A stretch of 64,000 nucleotides of DNA. Source: a virus. The DNA is taken from positions 1 through 64,000 of the IMG/VR virus record IMGVR_UViG_3300021962_000035. The stretch is one strand, 5' to 3'. The notes below the pieces were generated by a model. That model saw nothing but the letters and a program-made list of their open reading frames with translations. It had not been told where the DNA came from and did no database searches. The translations under genes and the position numbers were made by a program. Shown piece by piece: positions 11,805-49,001 of this stretch (its first letter is position 1; each line of letters starts with the position of its first letter).

Positions 11805-13646
11805 ATGTTTTCAGAAGCAGTACAGAAAGAAGATTCACAAACGGAGAGTAGTTATTGGACAACCTCCAGAATAAATGAACTTCTTAGAAGAGTTGATGAG
11901 GAAGGGCTTGACTATAAAAGTGTAGACAACCCATTCCATGACAACAACCCCGAATTAAAAAGGGCAAATATTCTTTGGGAATATACACCGGAGGAAATCC
12001 TAGAAATGCGCAAGTGTGCGGAGGATGTTACTTATTTTGCTAAGTATTGCCAGGTTATGACCGATGAGGGTTTGAACTACATCAAGCTTAGAGATTATCA
12101 GACCTCAGTTCTTAGAGAGTACCAAGCCAACAGATTTAATATATTTTTAGCACCTAGACAGGTTGGTAAATCTATTACCTCTTCGGTAATTCTTGTTTGG
12201 TATCTGTTATTCAATCACGATAAAAATGCGATGATTTTGGCTAACGTGGGCGATACCGCAGAAGAGCTAATGGACAAGATCAAAGCAATCATCAAGGGAC
12301 TTCCGTTCTTCCTTAAACCTGGTATGGTTGTAAATAACGTGATGTCCATGAGGTTTGACAACGGATGTAGAATCTTAGCTAAGACCACAACTAAAACATC
12401 CGGTATCGGTTTTACTATACACTTCTTATACATGGATGAGTTTGCTCACATTAATCCAAACTTTATAGAAGCCTTTTTTAGATCAACTTACCCAACCGTA
12501 TCATCGTCAAAGGTCTCCAGAATCATAATCACTTCCACCCCTAATGGGATGAATAAGTTTTATGAGATATACCAGGGGGCTCTAATGGGAGAGAATAGCT
12601 TCAATCCAATCAGAGTAGATTGGTGGCAGGTTCCCGGAAGAGATGAGGCATGGAAACAAAAAGAGATTGGGAACTTAGGTAGCGAAGAACTTTTTAATCA
12701 GGAATACGGTAACCAGTTTTTAAGCTCTTCTTCCTTGCTTCTCGGGTCAAATGAATTAAAGAAGATCAAAACAAACGAGGTTGAATATGAATGGAAGGAG
12801 ATAGATTGCTTACATTATGAAGAGTCCTTAAATTATGAGAATCTTCTATGGCATCCTAAATTTAACATCGATAATGCAAATTCACCTGGAAAAAAATTCG
12901 TTTTCTCTATTGATATAAGTGCTGGTGTAAAAGGTGATTTCACCGTTGTTAATATCTTCAAAGTTACTCCACTTCCTAAGAAAATGATAGAATCTATACA
13001 GGAATATGAAGACGAATCCGATTTTTTCGGTCTGGTTCAGGTAGGTGTTTTCAGAGATAACGAGATAAAACTTGAGGAACTTGTTAAATTATTAAGGGGA
13101 TTAATAAAAGTTGTTGGCATCGATAGGGTTAAGCTAGCTATAGAAATGAACTTTAAAGGGGAGCTTCTATACGAAAAGTTGATGACGGACGATGACTATT
13201 ATGACGAGATGTTCTTGTTTACTAAGCATTCTGAATCCGCAAGAGTTTTAAAACCTGGCATCAAGTACAACGAAAAGAATAAGATGAAGTATTGCGAACT
13301 TCTCAGAAGTCTTATAAGAGAGGGGAAGATCCTCGTAAATGATAAAAAATGGACCATCCCGGAGCTTTTTACATTCGGACTAAATAACAGGGGAACATAT
13401 TCCAGTCAAACCGGACACGATGACGTGGCTATGACTTTAGTGAACTTACCTGGTCTTTTCGACGGTTATGATTTCAATCAGATGGTAGGTGATGTGTTTG
13501 ACGAGTTAGAAAACGATTACAAGCAACTGATATCTGCAAAACTTGAGGTGGGAATGCCAGGAGAAACTGATGAATTCGGATACGGAAACAAAGGTCCTTC
13601 AACTAAGGATGGCAGAAGCTATGGTGATTTTAATAAATTGCTTTAA
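11805..13646 (+). CDS. terL: Terminase large subunit (T4 gp17-like)
   Basis: LRDYQ, Walker A APRQVGKS, Walker B LYMDEFAH, ITSTPNG, nuclease SIDISAG...DFT and HDDVAM. Confidence 0.97.
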   Translation: MFSEAVQKEDSQTESSYWTTSRINELLRRVDEEGLDYKSVDNPFHDNNPELKRANILWEYTPEEILEMRKCAEDVTYFAKYCQVMTDEGLNYIKLRDYQTSVLREYQANRFNIFLAPRQVGKSITSSVILVWYLLFNHDKNAMILANVGDTAEELMDKIKAIIKGLPFFLKPGMVVNNVMSMRFDNGCRILAKTTTKTSGIGFTIHFLYMDEFAHINPNFIEAFFRSTYPTVSSSKVSRIIITSTPNGMNKFYEIYQGALMGENSFNPIRVDWWQVPGRDEAWKQKEIGNLGSEELFNQEYGNQFLSSSSLLLGSNELKKIKTNEVEYEWKEIDCLHYEESLNYENLLWHPKFNIDNANSPGKKFVFSIDISAGVKGDFTVVNIFKVTPLPKKMIESIQEYEDESDFFGLVQVGVFRDNEIKLEELVKLLRGLIKVVGIDRVKLAIEMNFKGELLYEKLMTDDDYYDEMFLFTKHSESARVLKPGIKYNEKNKMKYCELLRSLIREGKILVNDKKWTIPELFTFGLNNRGTYSSQTGHDDVAMTLVNLPGLFDGYDFNQMVGDVFDELENDYKQLISAKLEVGMPGETDEFGYGNKGPSTKDGRSYGDFNKLL

Positions 13647-17119: not shown

Positions 17120-17674
17120 ATGGCAGGATTATCACATTATCAAAATTCATTATCAGCAATAAACAAGTTCGAACCTGTTTACCTGAATCAGTTCGAGGTT
17201 ACCGTTATACCTCCTTCTGCTGTTGCTGGCGGAGAGATCCTACTACAACACGTTACGAAGGTTGGTGGACTTACATTAGACAAAAACCCAGGATTGGTTA
17301 CCCAAAAATATAAGTTTGCTAAAAGGAACTATGCTGGAGCTAAGCCCGATAACACTTATATGGATTTAAGTTTAAGCTTTACCGTCAACTTAAATGATGA
17401 TAACTCAATGTATGTTTTTAAAACATTGAGACAATGGAGTGACTTAATCTACAATCCTTTAACAGGTGCGATGGGACTTAAGAATGATTATACTGGTACT
17501 ATCGTGGTTTCGATTTTTAATAAACAAGGGGACGTTTTCAGAAGAATAACATGCAGAGATTGTTATCCAACTAAAGCCATAAATGAAATGAATCTTAACT
17601 ACACATCAACTGATATATTCAAGATTGATGATATGACATGGGCAGTTGATTACTGGGAGGATTTATTCTTATAA
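17120..17674 (+). CDS. gp19: Tail tube protein, paralog 1 (gp19-like)
   Basis: Follows the sheath; YLNQFEV, F-VNLN, LRQWSDLIYNPLTG, DCYPT, DYWE. Confidence 0.85.
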   Translation: MAGLSHYQNSLSAINKFEPVYLNQFEVTVIPPSAVAGGEILLQHVTKVGGLTLDKNPGLVTQKYKFAKRNYAGAKPDNTYMDLSLSFTVNLNDDNSMYVFKTLRQWSDLIYNPLTGAMGLKNDYTGTIVVSIFNKQGDVFRRITCRDCYPTKAINEMNLNYTSTDIFKIDDMTWAVDYWEDLFL

Positions 17675-17691
17675 AAAAACACAAAAAATAA

Positions 17692-18267
17692 ATGGCAGGT
17701 TTACCACATTTTACAAACTCTAAAGCCGCGATAAACAACTACGAACCGGTTTATCTTAACCAATTCGAGGTTTTGATCAACCCACCTTCGGGTATAGTAG
17801 ATGCTAGCACGACTTTCAAAGGAGAGTCTATTTTAACTCAACAGGTTAAGTCCATTGCTGGATTAACTGTAGACATCTTAGCAAACGGAAACGTTGAACA
17901 AATGTACAAATTTGCTCAAAGAAGATACGCTGCAGGCGAGCCTACAACAACCGATATGACTTTAACTATGGAATTTGAAGTCAACCTAAATGATGCTAAC
18001 TCTATGAGTGTTTATAAGATACTTAGACAATGGAGCGATTTAATCTATAACCCCTTAACTGGAGCAATGGGTATTAAGAGTGATTATGTTGGGTCTATGG
18101 TTATTTCGGTTTTCAGCAAAAGAGGGGATGTTTTCAGAAGAATCAGAATTCCTTCTTGCTTTTTGAGCACAGCTATTAACGATATGCAGTTGGATTACGA
18201 GAATCCTGCTATCTACACAGTATCAGCTTCTTGGATCTGTGATTACTGGGAAGATTTATTCATCTAA
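17692..18267 (+). CDS. gp19: Tail tube protein, paralog 2 (gp19-like)
   Basis: Same motif set as paralog 1 (EPVYLNQFEV, LRQWSDLIYNPLTGAMG, DYWEDLF). Confidence 0.85.
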   Translation: MAGLPHFTNSKAAINNYEPVYLNQFEVLINPPSGIVDASTTFKGESILTQQVKSIAGLTVDILANGNVEQMYKFAQRRYAAGEPTTTDMTLTMEFEVNLNDANSMSVYKILRQWSDLIYNPLTGAMGIKSDYVGSMVISVFSKRGDVFRRIRIPSCFLSTAINDMQLDYENPAIYTVSASWICDYWEDLFI

Positions 18268-22021: not shown

Positions 22022-22627
22022 ATGCAAAAAGAGACCAACATCCAAAAACTAGCAGAAGACTTTATTCTAACAAAAACAGACAAATCATTCGGAGACTTAT
22101 TTAATCGTTTAAAACCTGGTGTATCCAACCATTGTTTTCTGATTCTGAAAGATCCTGAACTAGCGGAAGACGCATTTCTTAACACCATGTCTAAGATATG
22201 GCTTAAGATAGATCAGTACGATATGGAAAGGGGTAACTTTTCCACATGGTGCTATAACATAGCCAGAAACGAATCCCTGCTTTTAATGAAGTCTAGAAAA
22301 AGACTGATCAATCACGAGGATCTTGATTTAGAGTATCTTTCGTCCAAAAATACCATAGGTGATCTGGGAGGGTTTTATACCATTGAAGACGATCCGGCTT
22401 ACGGATTTTTTAGTGAAGAAAATACAATTGACTCTGTATACGAATCGGTGCTAGACGAGATTAGATCATTACCTGAAACTTACCGTGATATCATGATAGA
22501 TCGGGAAATCAATGGTATGAAGTACAAGGATATTGCCGAAAAGTACGGAATTAAGAAAAGATCAATCGCAACAAGGATTAGAAGAGCTAGAGGGAGAATC
22601 AGAAAAAAGATGGACGGGAAACATTAA
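22022..22627 (+). CDS. Sigma-70 family (ECF-like) RNA polymerase sigma factor
   Basis: AEDAFLNT...KIDQYD...NFSTWCYNIARN (region 2); LPETYRDI...GMKYKDIAE...RIRRAR (region 4.2). Confidence 0.92.
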   Translation: MQKETNIQKLAEDFILTKTDKSFGDLFNRLKPGVSNHCFLILKDPELAEDAFLNTMSKIWLKIDQYDMERGNFSTWCYNIARNESLLLMKSRKRLINHEDLDLEYLSSKNTIGDLGGFYTIEDDPAYGFFSEENTIDSVYESVLDEIRSLPETYRDIMIDREINGMKYKDIAEKYGIKKRSIATRIRRARGRIRKKMDGKH

Positions 22628-26784: not shown

Positions 26785-29289
26785 ATGGATTTTATAAACC
26801 AAGTTAAAAAACTGAAAGAACTAACAAAATCACCAGAGGTTAGACAAATTTGCGAGAGTTATCTTAGCGGATCCTCTGAGATGACCGAATCACAGGTTCT
26901 TGCCGCTCTTAACGAGCAAGCTTCAGCAGAAGCAACACCAGAAATGAAAAGCCACTGGGATTCTATAAAAAATGAGCAAATGGAGGAATCTAAAAAGAGA
27001 GCTTCAGCTTTAATGGAATCTTGGGGAGGTTTAAGAGGCAATGCTTCTTTAAATAATTCTGGTTCTTATATCGGAAACGAAAAGAAAGAAGAAACTAGCA
27101 AATCTCTTTTAGAGAGCCTAAATAACTTAGAAACAAACGACGATAGCACAAGATCTTTCGTTGAAGCTCAGGGACTTAGAAACTTAGGAGTTCTTGAATC
27201 AATCGGAAAAATCAAAGGCCTTTCTATTTACGAATACCCTAAGGTTAAAATCGTTTGTGAGCAGTATGCAAATATCATTGCAAATAAGAGCGTACCAGAA
27301 TTTTCAGTTATTCACAACTTCGTTGCTGAATTAGAATCTTTCAAATGGGACGTTACGGTTTTACCTATCATCGAAAATCTTAAAGAGAAGATTAATAAAT
27401 TCTCGAGAGAAATAGAAGTTTCTAAAGTTTTAGAATCTATTAAACAAAGTGGAAACAACAGTTTCTATTCTGAGCTTAGTGAATCATTAAGCAACTGGCT
27501 AATTTCTGAAAGCAAATCTTCAGGTTTACTTTCTAAAGAAATCTCAAAATGGTCTTTTAATCCAGTTGTTAGAAATTTAATCAATTACTTAAATGTTAAC
27601 GAGGCATCAGATTCTAGAAAATTGGAAATCCCTGTTAATGCTCAAGGAGAATCAAAAGTGGGAAGAATCTACTCACCAATCTTAATCGAGGGAGATAAAA
27701 CTATCTTTGCTATCGGAAATAGCTTATTTGAAGCTCAGGGAGAATCACTAAGAAAATTAAGCACAAAAGAAGTTGGATCTGTACCAGCTGATTATATCAG
27801 TTTGGTTAACTCTGCTCTTAGACCTTATGTTAAGATCAACGAAAACGGAATCTTAATCCAATTAGGAAAGAAATATGTTAGCTTGGTAGAAGAAAATGAA
27901 GGTGTTTCAGTTTACTTAGGTAAATCTAAACTAAACTTCAGAAGCGTAGGAGAATTGGCTAAAGTATTAGGCTTAGAATCTGCTTCACACTTTGCAGTTA
28001 ATGAATCTCAAGTAGTTGGTGATATCATCAATCTTTACGTAAACTTCTCTAACATCGTTGAGTTAGACTTTGCTAAAAATATAACTTCTAATATCTACGA
28101 AGGAGTTTCAGTTAACCTTATTAAATGGAACAGCGAAATTTACCTTCAAAGAATCAACGAAGGTATGAGAGAGAATTCAGTTTATAAAGTAAACGGATCT
28201 CAAGCGGTTAAAATGGTTAAGGATTATTTGAGATATGATATCTCTGAAGGTTTAACTGAATTCTTAGAAGGTGAGCAAAAACTTAAGTCTATCATGATTA
28301 ATGACAGAACTAAAGTACTAGAGAACATTTCTAGAATAGAAGATCAAATCAATAAGGTTGAGGGTCTAATGGAAAACAATCCTTTATATGCTTCTTCAAA
28401 GGAAATGAAATCCGCTCACGCTTTACTTAATAACGAACTTTCAGTATTAAGAGAAAAATGGAATCAGATCAATATTGAATTAAGTAAGATCGAGGATTCA
28501 CCAGAATATGAAACATTGTCTGAAGATGAGAAATTCAATATTGGTGACTATATCAAAGTTAAAGAATCTGGCGAAACTGGAAAGATCATTTCAGTAGATG
28601 CTTCATCAGGAAGATATACAGTTCTTTTGGATACCGGTAAAACTTCAGATTTCCTAGTTAATGAAATCTCTGATCTAGAAGAAGCTTTAAGCCAAGCAGC
28701 AGAAAAGAATTCTGATGATAAAGGAGAAGAGGAAGAAGGCGGAGAAGTTAAAGAGTCAGAAATCTCTAGAACCCTTGAAAAATCTGGTTTAAGCTTAGAG
28801 GAGCAAAAAGCTTTATTAAAAACTTTCTCTGACGGACACGGATTCACTAAAGCACCTAAGGGAGAAGGAGACGAAATCGAGATGGAACTCGATCATATGC
28901 ACGGTTACAATCTTACAGTTAACGAAGCTAAGGCTAAAGCAGATGCTATGGCTAAAGCACCAGGAAACAATAAGAAAGAAAAAGGTAAAGTGGAAGGCGA
29001 AGATGATTTAGCTGAAGGTCCAGAAACTAAGGATAAAACTGAATTTGAGGGTAAAGACGCAGATGGTAAGAACAAAGAAATCGGATACAATCTTAGAGAA
29101 GGAGTAGATGCTAATTTAGTAGAAGCACCGGAAAAAGGTAAAGCTGCTAAGGAGACAAAACATGTAACATCTTTAGATAAATTCATGAATTTAGCGGAAG
29201 CCCCAGGATCAGAAGGTGATATAGATTTCGAAGTAAATGATGAGATGGGTTACAACCTAGACGAATCTGACGATTTAAAAAAAAACTAA
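26785..29289 (+). CDS. Large probable prohead core / internal head protein with KOW/SH3-like domain
   Basis: Late promoter; many L/I/V-x-E motifs; FNIGDYIKVKESGETGKIISVD; C-terminal GYNL and xAEAP repeats. Confidence 0.6.
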   Translation: MDFINQVKKLKELTKSPEVRQICESYLSGSSEMTESQVLAALNEQASAEATPEMKSHWDSIKNEQMEESKKRASALMESWGGLRGNASLNNSGSYIGNEKKEETSKSLLESLNNLETNDDSTRSFVEAQGLRNLGVLESIGKIKGLSIYEYPKVKIVCEQYANIIANKSVPEFSVIHNFVAELESFKWDVTVLPIIENLKEKINKFSREIEVSKVLESIKQSGNNSFYSELSESLSNWLISESKSSGLLSKEISKWSFNPVVRNLINYLNVNEASDSRKLEIPVNAQGESKVGRIYSPILIEGDKTIFAIGNSLFEAQGESLRKLSTKEVGSVPADYISLVNSALRPYVKINENGILIQLGKKYVSLVEENEGVSVYLGKSKLNFRSVGELAKVLGLESASHFAVNESQVVGDIINLYVNFSNIVELDFAKNITSNIYEGVSVNLIKWNSEIYLQRINEGMRENSVYKVNGSQAVKMVKDYLRYDISEGLTEFLEGEQKLKSIMINDRTKVLENISRIEDQINKVEGLMENNPLYASSKEMKSAHALLNNELSVLREKWNQINIELSKIEDSPEYETLSEDEKFNIGDYIKVKESGETGKIISVDASSGRYTVLLDTGKTSDFLVNEISDLEEALSQAAEKNSDDKGEEEEGGEVKESEISRTLEKSGLSLEEQKALLKTFSDGHGFTKAPKGEGDEIEMELDHMHGYNLTVNEAKAKADAMAKAPGNNKKEKGKVEGEDDLAEGPETKDKTEFEGKDADGKNKEIGYNLREGVDANLVEAPEKGKAAKETKHVTSLDKFMNLAEAPGSEGDIDFEVNDEMGYNLDESDDLKKN

Positions 29290-29521: not shown

Positions 29522-29554
29522 GAAATGACCAACCTTCAAAATAATAAAGAATTA

Positions 29555-29914
29555 ATGGCAAAAGACTATGTTAGAAATAGTGATCTTATCGTCGCTGTTA
29601 TAGAATCGAAAAAAGCGGGTAAACTTACCCCTGAGACTATAAGAATGTTTACCCTAATGATCCAGGGTATATCCAAAAAAATGGCCTATAAAGATCCAGA
29701 GGACAAAGAGGATTGCATGGCTTTTGCTATGGAAGATCTTTGTAAATATTGGGATAGATTCAATCCAGAAAAATCCAACAATCCCTTTGCTTACTTTACC
29801 CAGATAGCAAAGAATGGATTTGCAAAGGGATGGAAAAAATTACACCCACCAAAAAGTCCTAAAACTATCCCATTCAGCTACATAACAGGTGACGATAATT
29901 CGTATAACGTATAA
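29555..29914 (+). CDS. gp55: Late-transcription sigma factor (T4 gp55-like)
   Basis: YVRNSDL...DCMAFAMEDLCKYWDRFNPEKSNNPFAYFTQIAKNGF; likely start at ATG 29555. Confidence 0.85.
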   Translation: MAKDYVRNSDLIVAVIESKKAGKLTPETIRMFTLMIQGISKKMAYKDPEDKEDCMAFAMEDLCKYWDRFNPEKSNNPFAYFTQIAKNGFAKGWKKLHPPKSPKTIPFSYITGDDNSYNV

Positions 29915-29922
29915 AAGTTATC

Positions 29923-30408
29923 ATGACGGATATAAAAAAAGTAAAACCTAATGGGGATTACAAATCCGGAAAATTTGAACCCTCTAACCCAGATAAGTAT
30001 ATTGGAGATATCCACAACATAATATACAGATCTTCCTGGGAATATCGATTCTGTGTTTATTGCGATACTAATGAATCCATAATGAAATGGAGTTCTGAAC
30101 CTATAGCTATCAAGTACATCAATCCTCTGGACAAAAAGGAACATGATTACAATGTAGATTTTTATATAAAAGTTCTAAAAGAGTCTGGCGAAGAACAACA
30201 GTGGATAATAGAGATCAAGCCGGAGAGGCAGACTCAAAAGCCCATTTATGAGGGTACTATGACCCTTGCTAAGCTAAAATCATATAATCACAACATGCAG
30301 GTTTGGATAACGAACCAAGCAAAATTCAAAGCAGCTAAAGAATGGGCTGGGAAAAGAGGATTTAGATTCGGTGTGGTCGATGAAAAATTCCTATTTAAAA
30401 GTAAATGA
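29923..30408 (+). CDS. gp4: Head completion nuclease (T4 gp4-like, TnsA fold)
   Basis: GKFEPSNPDKYIGD...IIYRSSWE...WSSEP...VDFY...IEIKP. Confidence 0.92.
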   Translation: MTDIKKVKPNGDYKSGKFEPSNPDKYIGDIHNIIYRSSWEYRFCVYCDTNESIMKWSSEPIAIKYINPLDKKEHDYNVDFYIKVLKESGEEQQWIIEIKPERQTQKPIYEGTMTLAKLKSYNHNMQVWITNQAKFKAAKEWAGKRGFRFGVVDEKFLFKSK

Positions 30409-31010
30409 AATATTCAGAATCTGTATTACAATACAAGAAAGAATTCAACAGTATTGCAGAGCTAGTAAAGAATACTGATGATGTGTTTTCCGAGAAATAT
30501 TTCTCCGGAGGAAATTCGGAGAAGAGTTTTTCCCCTCCTTTTATACCCGGAGAAATATATGCCTTTCCCTATCCCACTGACAGCGAGTTGTCAGATAAGA
30601 GAAAGTTTATAGACAGAAATCCTATAGTATTATGCACAGATTCTTACCCGACACCGGAAAATGGTGTGATATTAAGAGGTATCGATCTTGTCGTAACACC
30701 TCCGGAGTATAGAATGAAAATAGTGGGAAAGGTTTATGATAACTTTTCTTCCATGATAGAAAAAAATCAGAATTACTATACAAAAGGTGGAGCTATATCT
30801 CCCTTGCCTTTAACTAATATCAATCTTAAGAATATGCTTGCTAATACCGGATATGAGTTTTCTCTGTTTGGATTCAAGACAAGGTTCATCAGAGAAATAC
30901 ATGTTTTGGACTTAGAAGACTGGTATAAATTACCTTATCTGAGAAGGGGCGATGTAGAGGGCTTAGATCTGCAGGGGATATATAAGGAATACCAATCGAA
31001 ATTAATTTAA
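30405..31010 (+). CDS. DNA end protector (T4 gp2-like)
   Basis: FIPGEIYAFPY...FIDRNPIVL; overlaps gp4 and precedes the portals. Confidence 0.55.
   Translation: MKYSESVLQYKKEFNSIAELVKNTDDVFSEKYFSGGNSEKSFSPPFIPGEIYAFPYPTDSELSDKRKFIDRNPIVLCTDSYPTPENGVILRGIDLVVTPPEYRMKIVGKVYDNFSSMIEKNQNYYTKGGAISPLPLTNINLKNMLANTGYEFSLFGFKTRFIREIHVLDLEDWYKLPYLRRGDVEGLDLQGIYKEYQSKLI
30977..30984 (+). promoter_or_regulatory. Late promoter GATATATA
   Basis: In the 3' end of the gp2-like gene, upstream of portal A. Confidence 0.6.
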
Positions 31011-31042: not shown

Positions 31043-32656
31043 ATGGCCGGTTTTGTAGACAATAATGATCCATCTCAATCCCCTGTTATACAGAGGATCA
31101 GGGAATCAGTGAGGAAACTGAGTACTTTTGGTATGAAGTATGATGACATGGTCATCAGAAATTCACAAGCTGTTGGTGTTACTGAGGCTGCTTTTTTAAA
31201 TAAGAACAAAGCTAATGTAGAGGACGAAAGCATGCTTTGGACCTTAGCAAAGCAGGATATCACAACAAAGCAGTTCATTTCATATTTCGATAAAGACTAT
31301 AAGGGCAAAAGGGATTATCTAAGAAAATTCTCGCTTAATCCCGAGATAGAATGGGTTCTAGATACGATATGTGACGAAGCCATTTCTTACGATCCCGCTA
31401 ATTTCTTTGCATACCCGGATTTCATAGATCTTTCAGACATAAATGAAAAGCTAAAAGAGGATCTTTATGAGAATTATAAAAAGCTTTATGACATCTGGGG
31501 ATTTACCGACGACATTACTGGATGGCAGTACTTTAGACAATTTTTAGTTGACGGATTTTTATGCTTTGAGATAATCTACGATAACGAGGGTAAATATATC
31601 ATAGGATTTAAAGAATTGGATCCTGTTACTATAATACCGAGTGTAGAGAAACAGGTAGACGGAACTTTTGTTAATACCTGGACCCAATTCCCACAAGACC
31701 CGAAAAGGAGAAGAATACTTTACGATCCGCAGATAATCTATATTTCTTATGCTAAAGGAAATGCAATCTCTAGGGTAAGTTATATCGAGAGGCTAATTAG
31801 ACCGTATAACATTCTGAGAATTATAGAATACACTAGAGTTATCTGGTCTGTTATGAATTCATCTTTTAGATTAAAGATGACAGTTCCTATCGGTACTAAA
31901 TCACCTCAAAAGGGTATGCAAACCTTGGGTGAACTTATGAGTATCTATAAGGAGGATGTCCAGCTTAATGATGAGAGCGGGGAATTACTAATTGACGGTA
32001 AACCTAAGATCCAGTTTTATAAAAACTATCTTATGCCCTCTGGTGTTAATGGTACGCCTACCATAGAACCTGTTACCACTGAGGGACCTAATCTAAATGA
32101 TCCTGCACCTTTGTCTTACTTCTTTGATAAGTTCGTGCAAGAATCTAAAGTTCCGCCTTCAAGGTTTCACACTCCAGACGGTGGAAACACTTCTCCATAT
32201 TCAAACGGAGCGGAAGGATTAGATAAGGAAGAAATAAGATTTGCTAAGTTTGTAGAAAGACTTAGATCAATTTTCCAGGAGATATTAACAAAGCCACTTT
32301 GGATTCAAATGGCTAAAAAATATCCTAACCTGGAGAAGGACTTCTTATTTAAGAGCCAATTGGGACTAGATTATTTCTCTGATAATCCATTTAAGATCAA
32401 TCAGGAGATGGATATTATTAATAAAAGGAAAGAATCCGTTACTGCTATGACAGGATTACTCGGAGACGAAGAGAAGCCATATTTCTCTACCGCTTTCCTT
32501 ATTGAGACTTTCCTTGGTATGTCCAGACAGGATATAATAGCAAATAAGGAAGCCATGGAGAGAAAAGCTAAGGAGAAGGAAAAAGCAGAGAAGAAAGAAG
32601 GCGGGGAAGAAGGCGGGGAAGAAAAAGAAGGGGAAGCACCAGAAGTAACACTATAA
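31043..32656 (+). CDS. gp20: Portal protein, paralog A (T4 gp20-like)
   Basis: YFRQFLVDGFLCFEII, SYIERLIRPYNILRIIE, KVPPSRF, EEIRFAKFVERLRSIF. Confidence 0.93.
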   Translation: MAGFVDNNDPSQSPVIQRIRESVRKLSTFGMKYDDMVIRNSQAVGVTEAAFLNKNKANVEDESMLWTLAKQDITTKQFISYFDKDYKGKRDYLRKFSLNPEIEWVLDTICDEAISYDPANFFAYPDFIDLSDINEKLKEDLYENYKKLYDIWGFTDDITGWQYFRQFLVDGFLCFEIIYDNEGKYIIGFKELDPVTIIPSVEKQVDGTFVNTWTQFPQDPKRRRILYDPQIIYISYAKGNAISRVSYIERLIRPYNILRIIEYTRVIWSVMNSSFRLKMTVPIGTKSPQKGMQTLGELMSIYKEDVQLNDESGELLIDGKPKIQFYKNYLMPSGVNGTPTIEPVTTEGPNLNDPAPLSYFFDKFVQESKVPPSRFHTPDGGNTSPYSNGAEGLDKEEIRFAKFVERLRSIFQEILTKPLWIQMAKKYPNLEKDFLFKSQLGLDYFSDNPFKINQEMDIINKRKESVTAMTGLLGDEEKPYFSTAFLIETFLGMSRQDIIANKEAMERKAKEKEKAEKKEGGEEGGEEKEGEAPEVTL

Positions 32657-32665
32657 AAATAAGAG

Positions 32666-34291
32666 ATGGCAGGATTTTTAGATTTTTTAAGACCTAACGA
32701 GTCAGCTTTAGGTAACATACTGAGAAGCCTTGGTAAAGTATCCAAGTTCGGTATGCAGTATGATGACATGGTCGTTAGAAATTCTCAGGCCGTAGGTAAA
32801 ACAGAAAGTTATTTCTTTAATCAGCAAGGAACTGGATTTACCCAGGATGACGCTTTTTACTGGACAGCTTCTTACCAGGATACCAAGGTAAGAAAATACA
32901 TCGCATACTTCGATAAGGACTATGTAGAAAAAAGAAACTTCTTAAGAAAATTTTCACTAAATGGAGAAATTGAATTTATTATTGATACGATTACAGACGA
33001 ATCTATCACTTATGACGATAGAAATTATTTTGCTAATCCTTCTTTCCTTAATTTAGATCTAAAGGAGAAGGTATTAAATAAGATATCTCTACATTATAAT
33101 AGGCTGTACAATATATTTGGGTTCCAAAATTCCGTACTTGCTTGGCAGTATTTCAAACAATTTTTAATTGACGGATTTCTCGCATTTGAGATTATCTATG
33201 ACAACAAAGGAAAAGAGATAATCGGATTTAAAGAGCTTGATCCATCTTCTCTACAACCCGCTGTTGAAAAGATAGGGGAAAATGAATACCAACAATTTTG
33301 GATTCAGTATCCAAAAAATCCTCAAATGACTAGGAAACTAACAAATGAGCAAATCATTTATATTTCTTATGCTAAGGGTAATAGCGTATCTAGGGTTAGC
33401 TATATAGAAAGACTCGTTAGATCCTACAACATTCTAAGAATCATGGAGAATTCCAGAATCATCTGGAATGTTATGAATGCTTCTTATAGATTGAAGTTTA
33501 TTATTCCTACTGGTAGCCAATCTCCTCAAAAAGCTATGCAGACTTTAGGCCAGCTAATGTCTAACTACAAGGAGGATATTACCATTAATGACGCTTCAGG
33601 TGAATTAACGGTAAATGGAAGACCTAAGGTTCAGTTTTATAAAAACTATCTATTTCCTGAACAGAATGGTCAATCACCTCAGATAGAATCATTAAATCCT
33701 AATGGTCCGGATTTTAATGTTATGGATAATGTTCTTTATTTCTATAACAAGTTAAAAATGGATTCCAAAATACCTTATGCTAGATTTGCTTCAAGGGCTG
33801 CTGGTCCTGTTAATTATCAGATAGGTATAGATCAGTTGGAAAGAGACGAGATAAGGTTTGAGAAATTCCTAAGAAGATTAAGATCTATTTTCCAGGAGAT
33901 ACTTGTCAAGCCCCTTTATATTCAAATGTGCTTAGATTTTCCTGAGTTGTCAAGAGATAGAAGCTTTAAAGCAAATCTGGGATTGGATTTTCACAGAGAA
34001 AGTGAGTTTGAAGAAATGGTTCAACTTACCAACTTTACTAAGAGAAGCGAATTCATAAAAGGCTTAGGCGAGCTTAAAGTTAAGGTCGGAGAGGAAGAGA
34101 AAGCATACTTTGATAATGATTATCTTATACAAAGATTCCTTGGGTTAACTCCGGATCAAATAGCTACAAACGAAAGCTATTTGAAAAAAGAAGCAAAAGC
34201 TGCTCCTAAGAAAGAGGAAGGCGGAGCTGAAGGCGAGGCCGCTCCAGCGGAGGGCGAGGGCGAAGGAGAAGCTCCGGAGGTAACTCTATAA
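32666..34291 (+). CDS. gp20: Portal protein, paralog B (T4 gp20-like)
   Basis: YFKQFLIDGFLAFEII, SYIERLVRSYNILRIME, KIPYARF, DEIRFEKFLRRLRSIF. Confidence 0.93.
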   Translation: MAGFLDFLRPNESALGNILRSLGKVSKFGMQYDDMVVRNSQAVGKTESYFFNQQGTGFTQDDAFYWTASYQDTKVRKYIAYFDKDYVEKRNFLRKFSLNGEIEFIIDTITDESITYDDRNYFANPSFLNLDLKEKVLNKISLHYNRLYNIFGFQNSVLAWQYFKQFLIDGFLAFEIIYDNKGKEIIGFKELDPSSLQPAVEKIGENEYQQFWIQYPKNPQMTRKLTNEQIIYISYAKGNSVSRVSYIERLVRSYNILRIMENSRIIWNVMNASYRLKFIIPTGSQSPQKAMQTLGQLMSNYKEDITINDASGELTVNGRPKVQFYKNYLFPEQNGQSPQIESLNPNGPDFNVMDNVLYFYNKLKMDSKIPYARFASRAAGPVNYQIGIDQLERDEIRFEKFLRRLRSIFQEILVKPLYIQMCLDFPELSRDRSFKANLGLDFHRESEFEEMVQLTNFTKRSEFIKGLGELKVKVGEEEKAYFDNDYLIQRFLGLTPDQIATNESYLKKEAKAAPKKEEGGAEGEAAPAEGEGEGEAPEVTL

Positions 34292-34485: not shown

Positions 34486-35832
34486 ATGGTATTCGATGAA
34501 ATGGTAAACAACATCAAGATTCTTAAAGTTTTAGAATCTTTGACCGGCGAGGGATCGCAAAAAGCAAAGCAATCATTAATCAAGACGTCGATCAATCCTA
34601 AAATGGAGTACATTCTCGACACTTGTTTTAACCCCTTTGTTACTACAAAGCTTCACAAGCTAAATTTCCCAGAAAAATCTAATTCAGAAAATCCCAATTT
34701 ATGGGAAGATTTCAAAGATCTGGTTGAGGATCTGAAGAAAGCACCTGCTGCAAATGATTCCCTTAGATCTAGGGCAGAGGTCCTACTCGGAGCTAGGTTA
34801 TCTGAGAACGAGTCAGAGGACACTGAATTGAGAAAAAACCTAATGAAAATCCTTACCAAAAGGATGAACATAGGGATTGGTGCAAAATTAATTAACAAAG
34901 CAGTAGGCAGGGAATTGATTCCTGATCCTTCTCTTATGTTGGCTACTGACGATCATAAAGTGATCGAAAAGTGGGACAAGATCTACTGTGAGGAAAAATA
35001 CGATGGCGTACGTGTAATAGCTATCTACAAGAATGGTGAAATCACATACTTTACTCGTGCATTCAACGAACTTGATGCTACTTGCTTTCCGAAGATAACT
35101 TTCGATTTAAAACTCTGCATGATAAACTCTGGACTATCAGGTAACTGGTTTTTCGATGGAGAATTAACCGATTTGAACAGAAAATCCGTTAGCGGTAAAG
35201 TAACACAAATTCTTAAAGGTACGGCAAGCGATAAAATCGAAAGCGGATTTCTTTTTAATGTTTTCGATTTTGATGAACTCATTACTCTAGATAAGGGAAG
35301 CGGGGTTCTAGAATATGTTGATCGTAGAGATACGTTAGAAAAAATCACTAGCGGATTATCGGAGGATTCTCCGGTGAAGCTTGCTCAAATGTGGGAATTG
35401 TCAGATCCTTCTGAAATCACTGCCATCTATAAAAAAATAGTAGATATTGGCGGCGAAGGAGTTATCTGCAAGGATAACGGAGTTTATGAATGCAAGAGAT
35501 CTAAATCTTGGGTTAAATTCAAGGAAGTTAACGAGTGCGATCTTGAAATAACTGGATGGTATCCAGGAGAGGGAAAAAGAGAGGGTCTTATCGGAGGATT
35601 TATTTGCACAGACCTTTCAAAAACACTTAATGTTAAGATTGGATCTGGTTTCAATGATAACGATCTTAAGGAACTTAGTAAAGATCCGGATTCACACATC
35701 GGAAAGATTGCAGCAATACAATACAACGTAACGATCACGGATAAACACGAGAACAGATCTTTATTCTTGCCTCGATTTGTCGAGGTTCGTCACGATAAAA
35801 ATTCTGCTGATGATCTTTCTAGTAAATTTTAA
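34486..35832 (+). CDS. ATP-dependent DNA ligase
   Basis: Motif I EEKYDGVR, FDGEL, FDFD, EGVICK, WVKFK, and FLPRF in the OB domain. Confidence 0.96.
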   Translation: MVFDEMVNNIKILKVLESLTGEGSQKAKQSLIKTSINPKMEYILDTCFNPFVTTKLHKLNFPEKSNSENPNLWEDFKDLVEDLKKAPAANDSLRSRAEVLLGARLSENESEDTELRKNLMKILTKRMNIGIGAKLINKAVGRELIPDPSLMLATDDHKVIEKWDKIYCEEKYDGVRVIAIYKNGEITYFTRAFNELDATCFPKITFDLKLCMINSGLSGNWFFDGELTDLNRKSVSGKVTQILKGTASDKIESGFLFNVFDFDELITLDKGSGVLEYVDRRDTLEKITSGLSEDSPVKLAQMWELSDPSEITAIYKKIVDIGGEGVICKDNGVYECKRSKSWVKFKEVNECDLEITGWYPGEGKREGLIGGFICTDLSKTLNVKIGSGFNDNDLKELSKDPDSHIGKIAAIQYNVTITDKHENRSLFLPRFVEVRHDKNSADDLSSKF

Positions 35833-45289: not shown

Positions 45290-47251
45290 ATGCCACAACT
45301 ACAATCATTAAACGAAAATATGGTATTCATCCTTGAGAGACAGAATTCCATACTAGAAGCGAAAAAGTCAGAATCTGACGATTACGTTCTAGAAGGTATT
45401 GCTGCTGTTTTCGGACAAGAGAACAACAACAATAGAATATACGAGGAGAAGGAATATTTACCGCACCTTGAATATTTGAAGGATAAGATCTCACAGAATA
45501 GACTGGTTGGTGAATTAGATCACCCAGAGAAATTCGATGTGTCTCTTAAGAACATCTCTCACATCATAACAGATCTTAACTACGATAAAGGTAACAGAGA
45601 GCTTAAGATTAAGGTTAAACTTTTAGATACCCCAGCGGGTAGAATAGCTAAGAACTTAGTTGATGCTGGAGTTCCTCTTTCTATTTCTTCAAGAGCAGCT
45701 GGTTCAGTAGGTAATGATAAAAAGGTGGCAATTAAGAAAATTTTTACTTACGATCTAGTAGCTGATCCTGGATTTAAGGACGCACAACTTGAAAGAGTGT
45801 ATGAAAGCCAAGGGTTTACATCTCAAGAATTCGAAGCAATGAAAAATAATAGCATATTAAATAGCTTAGAATGCTTAAATGAATCTTTAGGTATCGAAAA
45901 AGAATCTTCACTTAAGATATATAAAGTTGAAAATAACGAAGAATTCAACAAAATCGTGAATAAATCAGATAATAAAAATAAATCAGTCCTTATGGAGAAC
46001 AATGAATTTGTTACTGCGGAGGAGCTTAATCAGTATTCAGTCTTCTTGAAAAAAGAGATGGATTCGATGAAAGCCGCTATCGCAGAGGCTAAAAATCAAA
46101 AAGCATCGCTAACTGAATCTGAAGATTTAAGTAAAGCTAATGAAGCTCTTGAAGAAAGAGTTGCTAAGCTTGAAAAATATTCAGAGTATTTAGCTGAGAA
46201 TCTAGAAAATTCTATTAAATACGGTGAGTATTTAGCAGAAAACTTGGACAGCACTATCAACTACAGTAAATATTTAGCAGAAAACTTAGACAAGAATATT
46301 TCTTATTCTAAGTACTTAGCTGAAAACGTAGATAAGTCTATCTCTTATTCCGAGTATGTTGCTGAAAGCGTTGACAAGAACATCGAGTACTCTAAATACT
46401 TAGCAGAAAAATTGGATCAAAATATTCAATACTCAGAGTACTTAGCAGAAAACGTAGATAAAGGAATCGCTTATTCTGAATATCTTGGAGAAAACTTAGA
46501 TAAAGGAATCGCTTATACTGAATACGTTGCTGAAAAACTAAACAACGGAATCGAATACACTGAATACGTTGCTGAGAATTTAAACAAGGGCATCGAGTAC
46601 TCTGACTATCTTGCAGAGAACTTAAATAAAGGATTAGACTATTCTGAGTATCTTGCAGAGAAATTAAACAGAGGAATTGCTTATAGCGAATACATCGCTG
46701 AGTCAGTTTCTACTAAAATTCCATCTAATGGTACTGGAGTATTAAAAGAGAGTGTAAATCTATCTGCAGAAGCAGGTCTTAATGAATCTGGCTTTGCTGG
46801 AAACTATGATAACCTAACTTCACAGATTGATTCATTAATAGAATCGGTTAAGACACAAAAAACCGCTTCAAACATCAACGAAGCTGCTAAAGCAGTAAAC
46901 CCAGCCGAAACACAGAAGGCTAACGAAACAGCTCTTAACGAGTCAGAGAACACAACTAAAACAGGTCTTAAGTTTATTGACGAAATGCCAGCAGAATATG
47001 CTCCGGTATGGGAATCTTTATCAGAAGGACACCAAGCATCTATTGTTGCTCAGTCACACTTCTATAATTTAGATACCCCTTATCAGATCAAAAATTTCTG
47101 GTCAACTCGTCAGCTTGGAGCTAAACCAGTTGGAGTACAAAAACTTGACGAGAGTGAAAATGTAGCCGAGACTGCAAAAACACAAGCATATTCTTCAGAT
47201 TACATGAATTATATCGCTTCTGCACTTGAGCAAAAATTTCAAAAAAGATAA
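45290..47251 (+). CDS. gp21: Prohead protease (gp21-like) fused to scaffold (gp22-like)
   Basis: Catalytic motifs GELDHP, SISSRAAGSV, YDLVADPGF; long coiled-coil repeat C-terminus; precedes the MCP gene. Confidence 0.9.
   Translation: MPQLQSLNENMVFILERQNSILEAKKSESDDYVLEGIAAVFGQENNNNRIYEEKEYLPHLEYLKDKISQNRLVGELDHPEKFDVSLKNISHIITDLNYDKGNRELKIKVKLLDTPAGRIAKNLVDAGVPLSISSRAAGSVGNDKKVAIKKIFTYDLVADPGFKDAQLERVYESQGFTSQEFEAMKNNSILNSLECLNESLGIEKESSLKIYKVENNEEFNKIVNKSDNKNKSVLMENNEFVTAEELNQYSVFLKKEMDSMKAAIAEAKNQKASLTESEDLSKANEALEERVAKLEKYSEYLAENLENSIKYGEYLAENLDSTINYSKYLAENLDKNISYSKYLAENVDKSISYSEYVAESVDKNIEYSKYLAEKLDQNIQYSEYLAENVDKGIAYSEYLGENLDKGIAYTEYVAEKLNNGIEYTEYVAENLNKGIEYSDYLAENLNKGLDYSEYLAEKLNRGIAYSEYIAESVSTKIPSNGTGVLKESVNLSAEAGLNESGFAGNYDNLTSQIDSLIESVKTQKTASNINEAAKAVNPAETQKANETALNESENTTKTGLKFIDEMPAEYAPVWESLSEGHQASIVAQSHFYNLDTPYQIKNFWSTRQLGAKPVGVQKLDESENVAETAKTQAYSSDYMNYIASALEQKFQKR
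45916..45923 (+). promoter_or_regulatory. Internal late promoter GATATATA
   Basis: Inside the protease gene, 68 nt before the in-frame ATG 45992. Confidence 0.55.
46163..46708 (+). repeat. 13 imperfect copies of a 14-aa (42-nt) repeat, approx. DKGIxYSEYLAENL
   Basis: Read directly from the translation of the scaffold region. Confidence 0.9.
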
Positions 47252-47276
47252 ATAAATAAAAAAAACAACTAAAATC

Positions 47277-49001
47277 ATGAAATTGATTAACGAACAAGAA
47301 ATCTATGAAACTTGGTCACCTCTTATCGAGAGCAAGGCTGGTATCACAGATGAAAGCAAAAAAGGTTGGTTGACTAAATATTGTCATTACCATTCATTAA
47401 ACGAGTCTGCTGGTGCATACAACTCATTAGGCGTTGTAAACGGTATGGGTACTGTAGCTCCTCCAGCATTCCCAGGCGCATCATTCGGTGGTGGCGCTGC
47501 TCTATCAACTGGCGCTAACGCTGGTTTCTACAACAACAGCTGGCAAGGTTCAGGAGATAAATTCCCTTCATTACTTCCATTAGCTATTCAGGTAGCTGCG
47601 AAGACTGTAGGTTTTGATATCGTTCCTGTTATCCCTATGTCAGGTCCAACTGGTATCTTATCTTACTTAGATTACGTATACGCAGGTGGTAAAGTTGCTG
47701 CTGCTGCTGCTTCTTCAGCTGCTGATCAGTTAGCTACTGCTCCTTCATTAATTAAATTCCCAGTTTACCAATCAGCAACTGGAACAGGTGTTACTGGTGC
47801 TACTGCTGGTACATTCACTGTAGGTGCTACTGCTTCTGTTGGTACTACTTTACTTTTAACTTTCGTAGGTCTATCAAGAATTGATGGTTACCCTATCTTC
47901 CAAGTTACTGGTTTAGCTTCAGGTTCTAACGTTGCTTCTTACATCAACGGTACTCCTGCACAAGTAGTTACTTCAGCAGGTGGTTCTGGTTTCTACACTG
48001 GAGCATCTTCAGTTAACTACGCTGCACAGCTAGTTAAAGCTTTAGAAGATCACATCCAAGGTTTCTCTGGTGCTGGTTTCAACAACGACCAAGCTTGGCA
48101 AGGTCCTTACGTTGATGGTACTAAAACTTACAACCCAATGTTAAGAGGTGTTGCTGAGTCTACTTACTACAACTCAATGGGTCTTTCAACTTTCACTAAA
48201 TTCGTAGAAGCTGAAACTTTCCAAGTTGCTGCATCAGTTACAACTGAGCAAATCCAAGACCTTAACAAACAATTCGGTATCGACGTTATTTCAATGATCG
48301 AGAACGCATTGGTTAACGAGGTTTCTCAAGCAATCAACAAGCACATCCTTTCAAGAACATTTGCTTTAGGTTGGTCTAACCACACTCAGTTCCTTAACAC
48401 TGAAAACCAAAACCTTAACTTGAACTTGATCATCGGTGGTGGTGCTGGTACTACAGCCGCTTACGTTAAGAAAGACGACACTACTCAAGCTATGACAATC
48501 CCTGCAGGTCCTGCATCAGGAGGTTATGAGAACTTATCAACTTTACAAAGAAGATTATTCTCAAGAATCCTTGCAGCTGCTAACGTGGTAGCTAACAGAG
48601 GTAGAAGAGGTCCTGCTAACTTCATCGTTACAAACGCTGCAGTTGCAAGTGCACTTCAAGATATCTCTCAGTTCACTTTCGCACCGTTCTCTAACACTTT
48701 AACTCAAAACAACGGTACTTTATACCCTGTAGGTTCGCTTGCTGGTATGACTGTATATGTTGATCAAAACATGAGCTACAATGATACAAGAGTTTGTATC
48801 GGTAGAAAAGGTGGAGACGACGAACCAGGTATCAAATTTATGCCTTACATGATGGCTGAATCTATTCAGACTATCTCTGAAGGTACAATGTCACCTAAAA
48901 TCGCAGTTAAATCAAGATACGCTCTAGTAGAAGCTGGTTTCTTACCAGAAACTATGTACTTGACATTCTATGTTAACGTACCTGCTGGTGGTTTAGCTTA
49001 A
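47277..49001 (+). CDS. gp23: Major capsid protein (T4 gp23-like)
   Basis: PMSGPTG, TTEQIQDLNKQFGID, EVSQAINK, RGRRGPANF, FMPY, PKIAVKSRYAL; strongly biased codon usage. Confidence 0.95.
   Translation: MKLINEQEIYETWSPLIESKAGITDESKKGWLTKYCHYHSLNESAGAYNSLGVVNGMGTVAPPAFPGASFGGGAALSTGANAGFYNNSWQGSGDKFPSLLPLAIQVAAKTVGFDIVPVIPMSGPTGILSYLDYVYAGGKVAAAAASSAADQLATAPSLIKFPVYQSATGTGVTGATAGTFTVGATASVGTTLLLTFVGLSRIDGYPIFQVTGLASGSNVASYINGTPAQVVTSAGGSGFYTGASSVNYAAQLVKALEDHIQGFSGAGFNNDQAWQGPYVDGTKTYNPMLRGVAESTYYNSMGLSTFTKFVEAETFQVAASVTTEQIQDLNKQFGIDVISMIENALVNEVSQAINKHILSRTFALGWSNHTQFLNTENQNLNLNLIIGGGAGTTAAYVKKDDTTQAMTIPAGPASGGYENLSTLQRRLFSRILAAANVVANRGRRGPANFIVTNAAVASALQDISQFTFAPFSNTLTQNNGTLYPVGSLAGMTVYVDQNMSYNDTRVCIGRKGGDDEPGIKFMPYMMAESIQTISEGTMSPKIAVKSRYALVEAGFLPETMYLTFYVNVPAGGLA

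What the first reader, a model, noticed from the sequence alone, without database searches (positions are those of the whole stretch)
31043..34291. Two intact, tandem portal genes: a possible heteromeric portal or two portal vertices
Seen: adjacent 537-aa and 541-aa ORFs each carry the full T4 gp20 motif series and align end to end by eye, with no stops or frameshifts. They differ in the loop before the EIRF motif (RFHTPDGGNTSPYSNGAEGLDKEEIRF vs RFASRAAGPVNYQIGIDQLERDEIRF). Known: tailed phages normally build a homododecameric portal from one gene. Inference: both copies are maintained, possibly as an alternating heteromeric ring, a stacked double portal, or separate packaging and tail vertices.
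Basis: partly seen in the sequence, partly recalled or inferred. Interest (0 to 1): 0.9.

Follow-up and report, generated by a model that had tools for sequence, protein, structure and literature searches.

The report
Ancient conserved two-gene phage portal
A large group of uncultured giant T4-like phages has kept two diverged, equally protected copies of the normally single portal gene side by side since one old duplication, which suggests, without proving, that the capsid's DNA gateway is built from two kinds of subunit.

Summary
Observation confirmed. Two intact T4 gp20-family portal genes (537 and 541 aa, 50% identical, 9 nt apart) follow one late-promoter motif. I recovered 126 distinct complete pairs, always in the same order, and no clear loss of either copy. 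The tree gives one duplication, nested among single-portal huge phages and kept in two deep subclades only about 53% alike. Both copies are under equal, strong purifying selection (dN/dS about 0.02). Terminase, neck, protease and capsid genes are single in a complete relative; the tail-tube gene is doubled in the same genomes.

Three indirect signs point to one shared ring. A C-terminal motif sits on the first copy in one subclade, the second in another, both in a third, and is rarely absent from both. Fixed changes hit stem helix 5 in copy A but the clip, channel loop and helix 7 in copy B. Both keep the motor-docking clip tip.

Best reading: a heteromeric portal (0.6); strict 6+6 alternation about 0.35. 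Separate vertices are less likely. There is no structural or proteomic proof, and complex folding gave no verdict. I found no paper on it. This scan found the same pair before on other genomes.

The parts
31043..32656 (+). Portal copy A (first copy), 537 aa, T4 gp20 family
   Evidence: PF07230 E 7e-59; phrog_213; first copies form one clade 100/99; dN/dS about 0.020
32666..34291 (+). Portal copy B (second copy), 541 aa, T4 gp20 family
   Evidence: PF07230 E 9e-67; second copies form one clade 100/99; dN/dS about 0.017
30977..30984 (+). GATATATA motif, probable late promoter serving both portal genes
   Evidence: 13 copies in the window, all on +, many before virion genes; 4.8 expected. Within 150 nt upstream of A in 58 of 60 relatives, before B in 0 of 60, never inside A or the gap. 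Promoter function is inferred.
32657..32665 (+). 9-nt A-rich gap between A and B, no Shine-Dalgarno sequence and no predicted terminator
   Evidence: gap -1 to 23 nt (median 9) in 60 relatives
32159..32227 (+). Tunnel loop of A: one residue longer, net neutral to acidic
   Evidence: 23 residues, mean charge -0.8 in A and -2.6 in first copies of the deep subclade
33779..33844 (+). Tunnel loop of B: shorter, net basic
   Evidence: 22 residues, mean charge +1.1 in B and +1.9 in second copies of the deep subclade
31802..31849 (+). Stem helix 5 of A with four A-only derived residues (P254, I261, Y263, S269)
   Evidence: polarised against the closest single-portal relatives; B has none in this helix
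33485..33748 (+). Clip, channel loop and stem helix 7 of B with eight B-only derived residues (Y274, F278, I280, Q296, F350, V352, V356, N361)
   Evidence: A has four derived residues in the same elements
32633..32653 (+). C-terminal heptapeptide EAPEVTL of A after an acidic linker
   Evidence: motif distribution
34268..34288 (+). Identical C-terminal heptapeptide of B, written with different codons
17120..17674 (+). Tail tube copy 1 (co-duplicated feature of the same clade)
   Evidence: PHROG tail tube; 55% identical to copy 2
17692..18267 (+). Tail tube copy 2
   Evidence: two tubes in 7 two-portal genomes, one in 7 single-portal genomes
29525..31010 (+). Context: gp55-like late sigma, gp4-like head completion nuclease, gp2-like DNA end protector; same order precedes the single portal of outgroups
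11805..13646 (+). Context: single large terminase
   Evidence: one copy in the complete 373-kb relative G002
45290..49001 (+). Context: single prohead protease-scaffold and major capsid protein genes
   Evidence: one full copy each in G002

Best explanation
One old tandem duplication of the portal gene in a lineage of T4-like giant myophages produced two subunits. They are made together from one late transcript and co-assemble into the single portal ring of the capsid: a heteromeric dodecamer, most simply A6B6 alternating, possibly mixed. The ring would still start head assembly, dock one terminase motor and then the neck. The copies have become mutually dependent through complementary changes at subunit contacts. 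They line the DNA channel with two kinds of tunnel loop, one acidic and one basic. SHOWN: duplication, retention, equal purifying selection, shared upstream motif, reciprocal distribution of the tail motif, element-specific fixed changes. INFERRED: co-transcription, co-assembly, stoichiometry, any functional benefit. Constructive neutral dependence would explain retention without a benefit.
For: (1) 126 distinct complete pairs in fixed order and no clear solo copy where flanking DNA exists. (2) One duplication, both lineages kept across two subclades about 53% alike. (3) Symmetric evolution: dN/dS 0.020 and 0.017; 163 synonymous to 5 non-synonymous codon differences in A and 165 to 5 in B against the nearest full pair; equal stems 0.34 and 0.33; per-branch change counts correlate at 0.91. 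(4) One late motif before A only, gap of a few bases, so both are probably made together in similar amounts. (5) C-terminal hydrophobic motif on B only in 58 pairs, A only in 21, both in 43, neither in 4, against 12.3 expected if independent. Whole subclades swap which copy carries it. Where both carry it, the tails of one genome match each other (5.1 of 7) more than across genomes (3.6). (6) Fixed A/B differences concentrate in stem, clip, channel and tunnel loops (21 of 83 against 9 of 112, p=0.001). Polarised, helix 5 changed only in A (4 to 0), while clip, channel loop and helix 7 changed mostly in B (8 to 4). In T4, helix 5 R275 contacts helix 7 D361 of the neighbour (PMC5812732); the matching sites changed N to S in A helix 5 and A to N in B helix 7, a size-compensating pair only in an A-B contact. 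(7) Both keep the clip tip G-[ST]-x-S-x-Q-K and the swapped charge pair at T4 R311/E332, so both can face the motor and neither shows a barrier to mixing there. (8) Terminase, neck proteins, protease and capsid are single in complete relative G002.
Against: No structure, proteomics or genetics exist. Points 5 and 6 rest on few independent evolutionary events and on an alignment to T4 at 25% identity or less. Tail matching within a genome could come from local gene conversion (a 37-nt exact match near the end of both genes in L046) rather than shared binding. Only 7 residues separate first from second copies across both deep subclades, and the helix-5 pattern is absent in the deep subclade. In E. 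coli about half of duplicated homomers stay separate homomers (PMC7480870). Single-copy partner genes fit separate packaging and tail vertices too.
Confidence: 0.6

Rival explanations
1. Two separate homomeric rings used in different places or particles: a packaging vertex and a tail vertex on one capsid, or two virion types, each perhaps with its own tail-tube paralog.
For: Fixed differences in interface elements could be barriers to mixing. The tail tube is doubled in the same genomes. B alone replaced the basic clip-tip residue at T4 M292 with Q in the window's subclade. One terminase and one neck would suffice.
Against: Both copies keep clip tip, stem and tunnel loop under equal constraint. 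In the deep subclade both copies keep the basic clip-tip residue. The tail motif swaps between copies across subclades, which is hard to explain if each ring has its own fixed role. In known tailed phages the same portal serves both steps (PMC4493910, PMC12929629).
Confidence: 0.16
2. One copy is the virion portal. The other acts only during assembly (head initiation at the membrane, a temporary or regulatory subunit) and is not in mature particles.
For: A alone carries the derived N-terminal and crown changes, including loss of about three crown residues in all first copies. T4 portal has a distinct membrane-bound initiation phase (PMC9958956).
Against: Equal constraint in all domains, including DNA-contacting loops. 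Both keep the MAGF N-terminus shared with single portals.
Confidence: 0.1
3. Stacked double portal: an A ring and a B ring in series along the DNA channel.
For: Both are full-length and probably co-expressed; a second gate could help retain a 350-430 kb genome (inference).
Against: A second ring would not need capsid-anchoring and motor-docking parts, yet these are equally conserved in both. Larger phages (462 and 735 kb) manage with one portal gene.
Confidence: 0.07
4. Plain redundancy or gene dosage: two interchangeable portal genes with no division of labour.
For: Symmetric rates; 165 of 195 columns fixed in both copies are identical.
Against: Thirty copy-specific residues are fixed across 60 diverse genomes. 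No loss was seen over the whole radiation, and only 12 portal subunits are needed per head.
Confidence: 0.07

Closest known systems
Bacteriophage T4 portal protein gp20 (Pfam PF07230; PDB 3JA7, 6UZC, 9MKB, 9LU6/9LU7)
   Same: Same family and domain order (wing, stem, clip, tunnel loop, crown). Only T4 gp20 structures match by profile and they lead the fold searches. T4-like context genes.
   Different: T4 has one gene and a homododecamer. Here there are two genes, 50% alike. T4's R275-D361 bridge and the R295 and R338 residues are replaced. There is an acidic C-terminal tail with a hydrophobic end motif.
Single-portal huge phages: LR756500.1 (462 kb), LR756501.1 (735 kb), Lak phages, Sphingomonas phage PAU, Tenacibaculum phage PTm1
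   Same: Nearest named relatives (43-47% for LR756500.1, 35-36% for Lak, 29-30% for PAU and PTm1). Same sigma-gp4-gp2-portal gene order in LR756500.1 and LR756501.1.
   Different: One full portal gene and one tail-tube gene in LR756500.1 and LR756501.1; one matching place in Lak, PAU and PTm1.
Paralogous heteromeric rings: archaeal thermosome and CCT, proteasome rings, fungal V-ATPase rotor ring (from own knowledge; general theory in PMC7480870)
   Same: A homomeric ring gene is duplicated, both copies are retained, and interfaces diverge in complementary ways. This is what the system most likely works like.
   Different: Those are cellular and experimentally shown; here co-assembly is inferred. 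No viral portal case was found in the literature searches.
Mixed portals from one gene: engineered T4 gp20 fusion mosaics (PMC9958956) and lambda gpB with its cleaved form (own knowledge)
   Same: They show that a portal ring tolerates non-identical subunits.
   Different: One gene, with engineered or processed variants, not two separately conserved paralogs.

Membership tests
T4 gp20-type portal (PF07230) | Profile match over the curated cut-off across the full model | tested here: met
   A 200 bits, positions 7-432 of 433; B 226 bits, positions 6-433; cut-off 22.9
T4 gp20-type portal (PF07230) | Wing, stem helices, clip, channel loop, tunnel loop and crown in order | tested here: met
   continuous alignment to T4 gp20; domain limits from PMC4493910
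T4 gp20-type portal (PF07230) | Portal fold in a predicted model | tested here: inconclusive
   models have mean pLDDT 52 and 48; top Foldseek hits are T4 gp20 (E 5e-12, 4e-11) but TM about 0.3
T4 gp20-type portal (PF07230) | T4-like head and packaging context (terminase, protease, major capsid, neck) | tested here: met
T4 gp20-type portal (PF07230) | T4's essential residues R275-D361, R295, R338/K342 | tested here: not met
   replaced in A, B and also in single-portal relatives, so these mark T4 itself, not the wider family
Canonical tailed-phage portal system | One portal gene per genome | tested here: not met
   exactly two in six large two-portal records, five of them rated complete
Canonical tailed-phage portal system | Homododecameric ring at one vertex | not testable with these tools
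   needs cryo-EM or biochemistry
Paralogous heteromeric ring | Both paralogs retained together under purifying selection after one duplication | tested here: met
Paralogous heteromeric ring | Co-expression | tested here: inconclusive
   shared upstream motif and short gap; RNA-library contigs on both genes at depth 2-3.5, DNA carry-over not excluded
Paralogous heteromeric ring | Complementary interface changes between paralogs | tested here: inconclusive
   helix 5 changed in A, helix 7 and clip mostly in B; few sites, no coordinates, pattern absent in the deep subclade
Paralogous heteromeric ring | Physical co-assembly of both proteins in one ring | not testable with these tools
   a 12-mer is beyond the size limit of the folding tool
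Moraphages (PMC12619734) and bS21 phages (PMC9723584) | Published clades of large aquatic phages that might already include the pair | tested here: inconclusive
   moraphage table lists 25 portal occurrences for 25 genomes; bS21 phages keep portal, terminase and capsid genes within about five genes of bS21, unlike this genome; no sequence comparison was made

The most novel reading that the evidence does not exclude
These phages build an obligate alternating A6B6 portal with six-fold symmetry and alternating acidic and basic tunnel loops. With the co-duplicated tail tube, this would be a genetically encoded symmetry reduction along the whole DNA conduit, and the first natural two-gene portal known in tailed phages.
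Probability: 0.35. Interest if true: 0.88.

Novelty: new variant of a known kind. Interest (0 to 1): 0.72.

Why it matters
The one-gene, twelve-identical-subunit portal is treated as universal in tailed phages and herpesviruses. A whole lineage of 230-430 kb phages that has kept two portal genes since an old duplication departs from that rule at the gene level, whatever the architecture turns out to be. If the ring is heteromeric, it gives a natural tool for old questions: how a 12-fold portal copes with the 5-fold capsid and motor and the 6-fold neck, how tunnel loops grip DNA, and how many subunits must carry each function. It is also a clean viral test of homomer-to-heteromer evolution. It can be tested with two recombinant proteins, without culturing the phage.

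Tried and rejected
A-B complex folding: no verdict, score 0.02; not used as evidence either way. AlphaFold monomers were low-confidence, so no contacts could be read.

Assembly artefact or recent duplication: rejected (saturated synonymous sites; 126 pairs). Pseudogenisation: rejected for the window. Two single frameshifts were seen among relatives (B of L102; A of L475); close kin are intact, so they are probably assembly errors, but this is unverified. The second portal hit in the 735-kb phage LR756501.1 is only a 101-aa open frame, not a second portal.

My first reading, that A and B split T4's packaging residues (clip tip to A, inner clip loop to B), was dropped. The window's own B has Q at the inner-loop site, and the deep subclade keeps the basic clip tip in both copies. 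Polarity against distant singles changed when closer singles were added, and the latter is used.

Residue-level co-change between A and B gave no pair above the within-copy background. Same-site parallel changes were only modestly in excess (234 against 200; 48 against 34 to the same residue). Whole-gene conversion between A and B: no long tracts (longest exact match 44 nt). No other protein of the 122-kb fragment ends in the tail motif.

RNA runs held only small shares and short contigs. Host: the TAnnTTTG motif is not strand-enriched genome-wide, and the bins labelled Saprospirales and Bacteroidetes may be mis-binned. A Bacteroidota host is only a guess. The tube count in the deep subclade could not be searched. 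Literature searches for a duplicated portal found nothing relevant; the library lacks most subscription papers.

Full report
OBSERVATION. The window holds two intact ORFs, 31043-32656 (537 aa, A) and 32666-34291 (541 aa, B), 9 nt apart. They are 50% identical over 509 residues. Both match the whole T4 portal profile PF07230 and PHROG 213, and only T4 gp20 structures match their profile. The contig is a 122-kb virus fragment of a T4-like myophage, with terminase, sheath, two tail tubes, late sigma, head completion nuclease, end protector, protease and major capsid genes.

CONSERVATION. Of the first 80 relatives, 78 had both genes in the order A then B, and two ended at the contig edge. Wider scans gave 91 distinct complete pairs; every lone A or B lay at a contig end, and one B had a 1-nt frameshift. 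A metagenome scan added a distant subclade whose copies are only 51-57% alike to the window's, for 126 distinct complete pairs in all. Six large records of 230-435 kb, five rated complete, have exactly two portal genes. Six others, including 425, 462 and 735 kb ones, have one full gene.

HISTORY. In the maximum-likelihood tree all first copies form one clade (100/99) and all second copies another (100/99). Together they form one clade (97/90) nested among single-portal phages. So there was one duplication. The two subclades split soon after it, and both kept both genes. Rates are symmetric: A-A and B-B identities correlate at 0.95 with slope 0.99. dN/dS is 0.020 for A and 0.017 for B over 18 unsaturated pairs. 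Against the nearest full pair the window's A differs at 163 synonymous and 5 non-synonymous codons, and B at 165 and 5.

EXPRESSION. A GATATATA motif occurs 13 times in the window, always on the coding strand (4.8 expected). It lies before A in 58 of 60 relatives and never before B or inside A, and the gap is -1 to 23 nt. No terminator is predicted between the genes. A single late transcript is therefore likely (inference). Short RNA-library contigs at 99% identity or more lie on A in three river metatranscriptomes and on B in two, at low depth; DNA carry-over is not excluded.

WHERE THE COPIES DIFFER. Thirty positions are fixed but different between A and B in the window's subclade. Twenty-one fall in stem, clip, channel loop and tunnel loop (21 of 83 against 9 of 112 elsewhere, p=0.001). 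Polarised with the closest single-portal relatives, stem helix 5 changed only in A (4 to 0). Clip, channel loop and helix 7 changed mostly in B (8 to 4). In T4, R275 on helix 5 pairs with D361 on helix 7 of the neighbouring subunit (PMC5812732). At the matching sites A shrank N to S on helix 5 and B grew A to N on helix 7, which compensates only in an A-B contact. This is a hint from a distant alignment, not proof, and the deep subclade lacks the helix-5 pattern. What is universal across both subclades is small: 7 residues, a longer neutral-to-acidic tunnel loop and a shorter crown in first copies, and a basic tunnel loop in second copies. Both copies keep the clip tip that docks the motor in T4, and the inter-subunit charge pair at T4 R311/E332.

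THE TAIL. Both window proteins end in EAPEVTL after an acidic linker, written with different codons. Across 126 pairs a hydrophobic end motif is on the second copy only in 58, the first only in 21, both in 43 and neither in 4. Two of those four have near-variants, and 12.3 would be expected if the copies were independent. The pattern follows clades: one group carries it on B, the deep subclade on A, the window's group on both, with occasional single losses of either. The nearest single portal (L508) also ends in such a motif. A feature needed on either copy but not both is what a shared ring predicts. The events are few and not independent, and local gene conversion may add to the within-genome match (5.1 of 7 against 3.6).

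PARTNERS. In the complete 373-kb relative G002, terminase, neck proteins, sheath, protease and capsid are single; portal and tail tube are doubled (neck identity). Two tubes occur in 7 two-portal genomes and one in 7 single-portal genomes. All 80 tube loci fetched from close relatives are tandem pairs. This is effectively one evolutionary event, so it is a correlate and not a statistical test.

MECHANISM. Best reading (0.6): A and B are made together and co-assemble into one heteromeric portal, held by complementary interface changes; strict alternation is about 0.35. Rivals: separate homomeric rings for different vertices or particle types (0.16), one copy acting only in assembly (0.10), stacked rings (0.07), plain redundancy (0.07). 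The base rate for duplicated homomers in bacteria is about even (PMC7480870); tandem co-expression and the reciprocal tail tilt it toward mixing. Shown: duplication, retention, selection, patterns of change. Inferred: co-transcription, co-assembly, stoichiometry, benefit.

KNOWN AND NEW. Each gene is a member of the T4 gp20 family. The system fails the canonical 'one gene' feature and most likely works like paralogous heteromeric rings of cells. The nearest named phages have one portal. Searches of the paper library found no report of a natural two-gene portal, and the papers on bS21 phages, moraphages, the huge-phage collection and jumbo phages do not mention it. Earlier agents of this scan reported the same pair on other genomes. 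That is not independent support; I re-tested conservation, tree, selection, promoter motif and tube doubling here. Verdict: real, ancient and unpublished as far as I can see; a new variant of a known machine with an unproven architecture; interest 0.72.

Noticed in passing
window 17120-18267: Tandem tail-tube paralogs (184 and 191 aa, 55% identical), doubled in the same genomes as the portal and single in single-portal relatives.
   Followed up: partly
window 8494, 13682, 26753, 30977, 45254 and others: GATATATA motif on the coding strand before virion genes; probable late promoter read by the gp55-like sigma at 29525.
   Followed up: partly
window 26785-29289: 834-aa protein with no Pfam or PHROG match, conserved just upstream of the late sigma gene in two-portal and single-portal relatives alike; probably a head protein.
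   Followed up: no
window 22022-22627 and 29525-29914: Two phage sigma factors, one ECF-like and one gp55-like.
   Followed up: no
window 34486-35832: ATP-dependent DNA ligase follows B in the window and in the two deep-subclade loci checked (L482, L500), whereas LR756500.1 and LR756501.1 have the protease gene right after their single portal.
   Followed up: partly
genome G000 99905-104971 (beyond the window): Three tandem paralogs of 516-587 aa in the tail region, also present in G002.
   Followed up: no
L513:1452-1955: About 500 nt separate the two portal genes in this relative, unlike the usual gap of under 25 nt; possibly an insertion.
   Followed up: no
L508:42-1664: Closest single portal to the duplicated clade; ends in a hydrophobic motif like the pairs. 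Upstream DNA is cut off, so its single status is likely but not certain.
   Followed up: partly
L085 (LR756501.1, 15166-15351): A 101-aa open frame with a fragment of the portal profile, far from the real portal gene of the 735-kb phage.
   Followed up: no
L437, L438, L439, L440, L441, L442: Phage contigs of this group sit inside bacterial and archaeal genome bins (Saprospirales, Bacteroidetes, Rubrivirga, Pacearchaeota); probably mis-binned, and a weak host hint at best.
   Followed up: no
G002 303477-334905: A complete relative carries a cluster of 33 tRNA genes; none lies in the window's 122-kb fragment.
   Followed up: no
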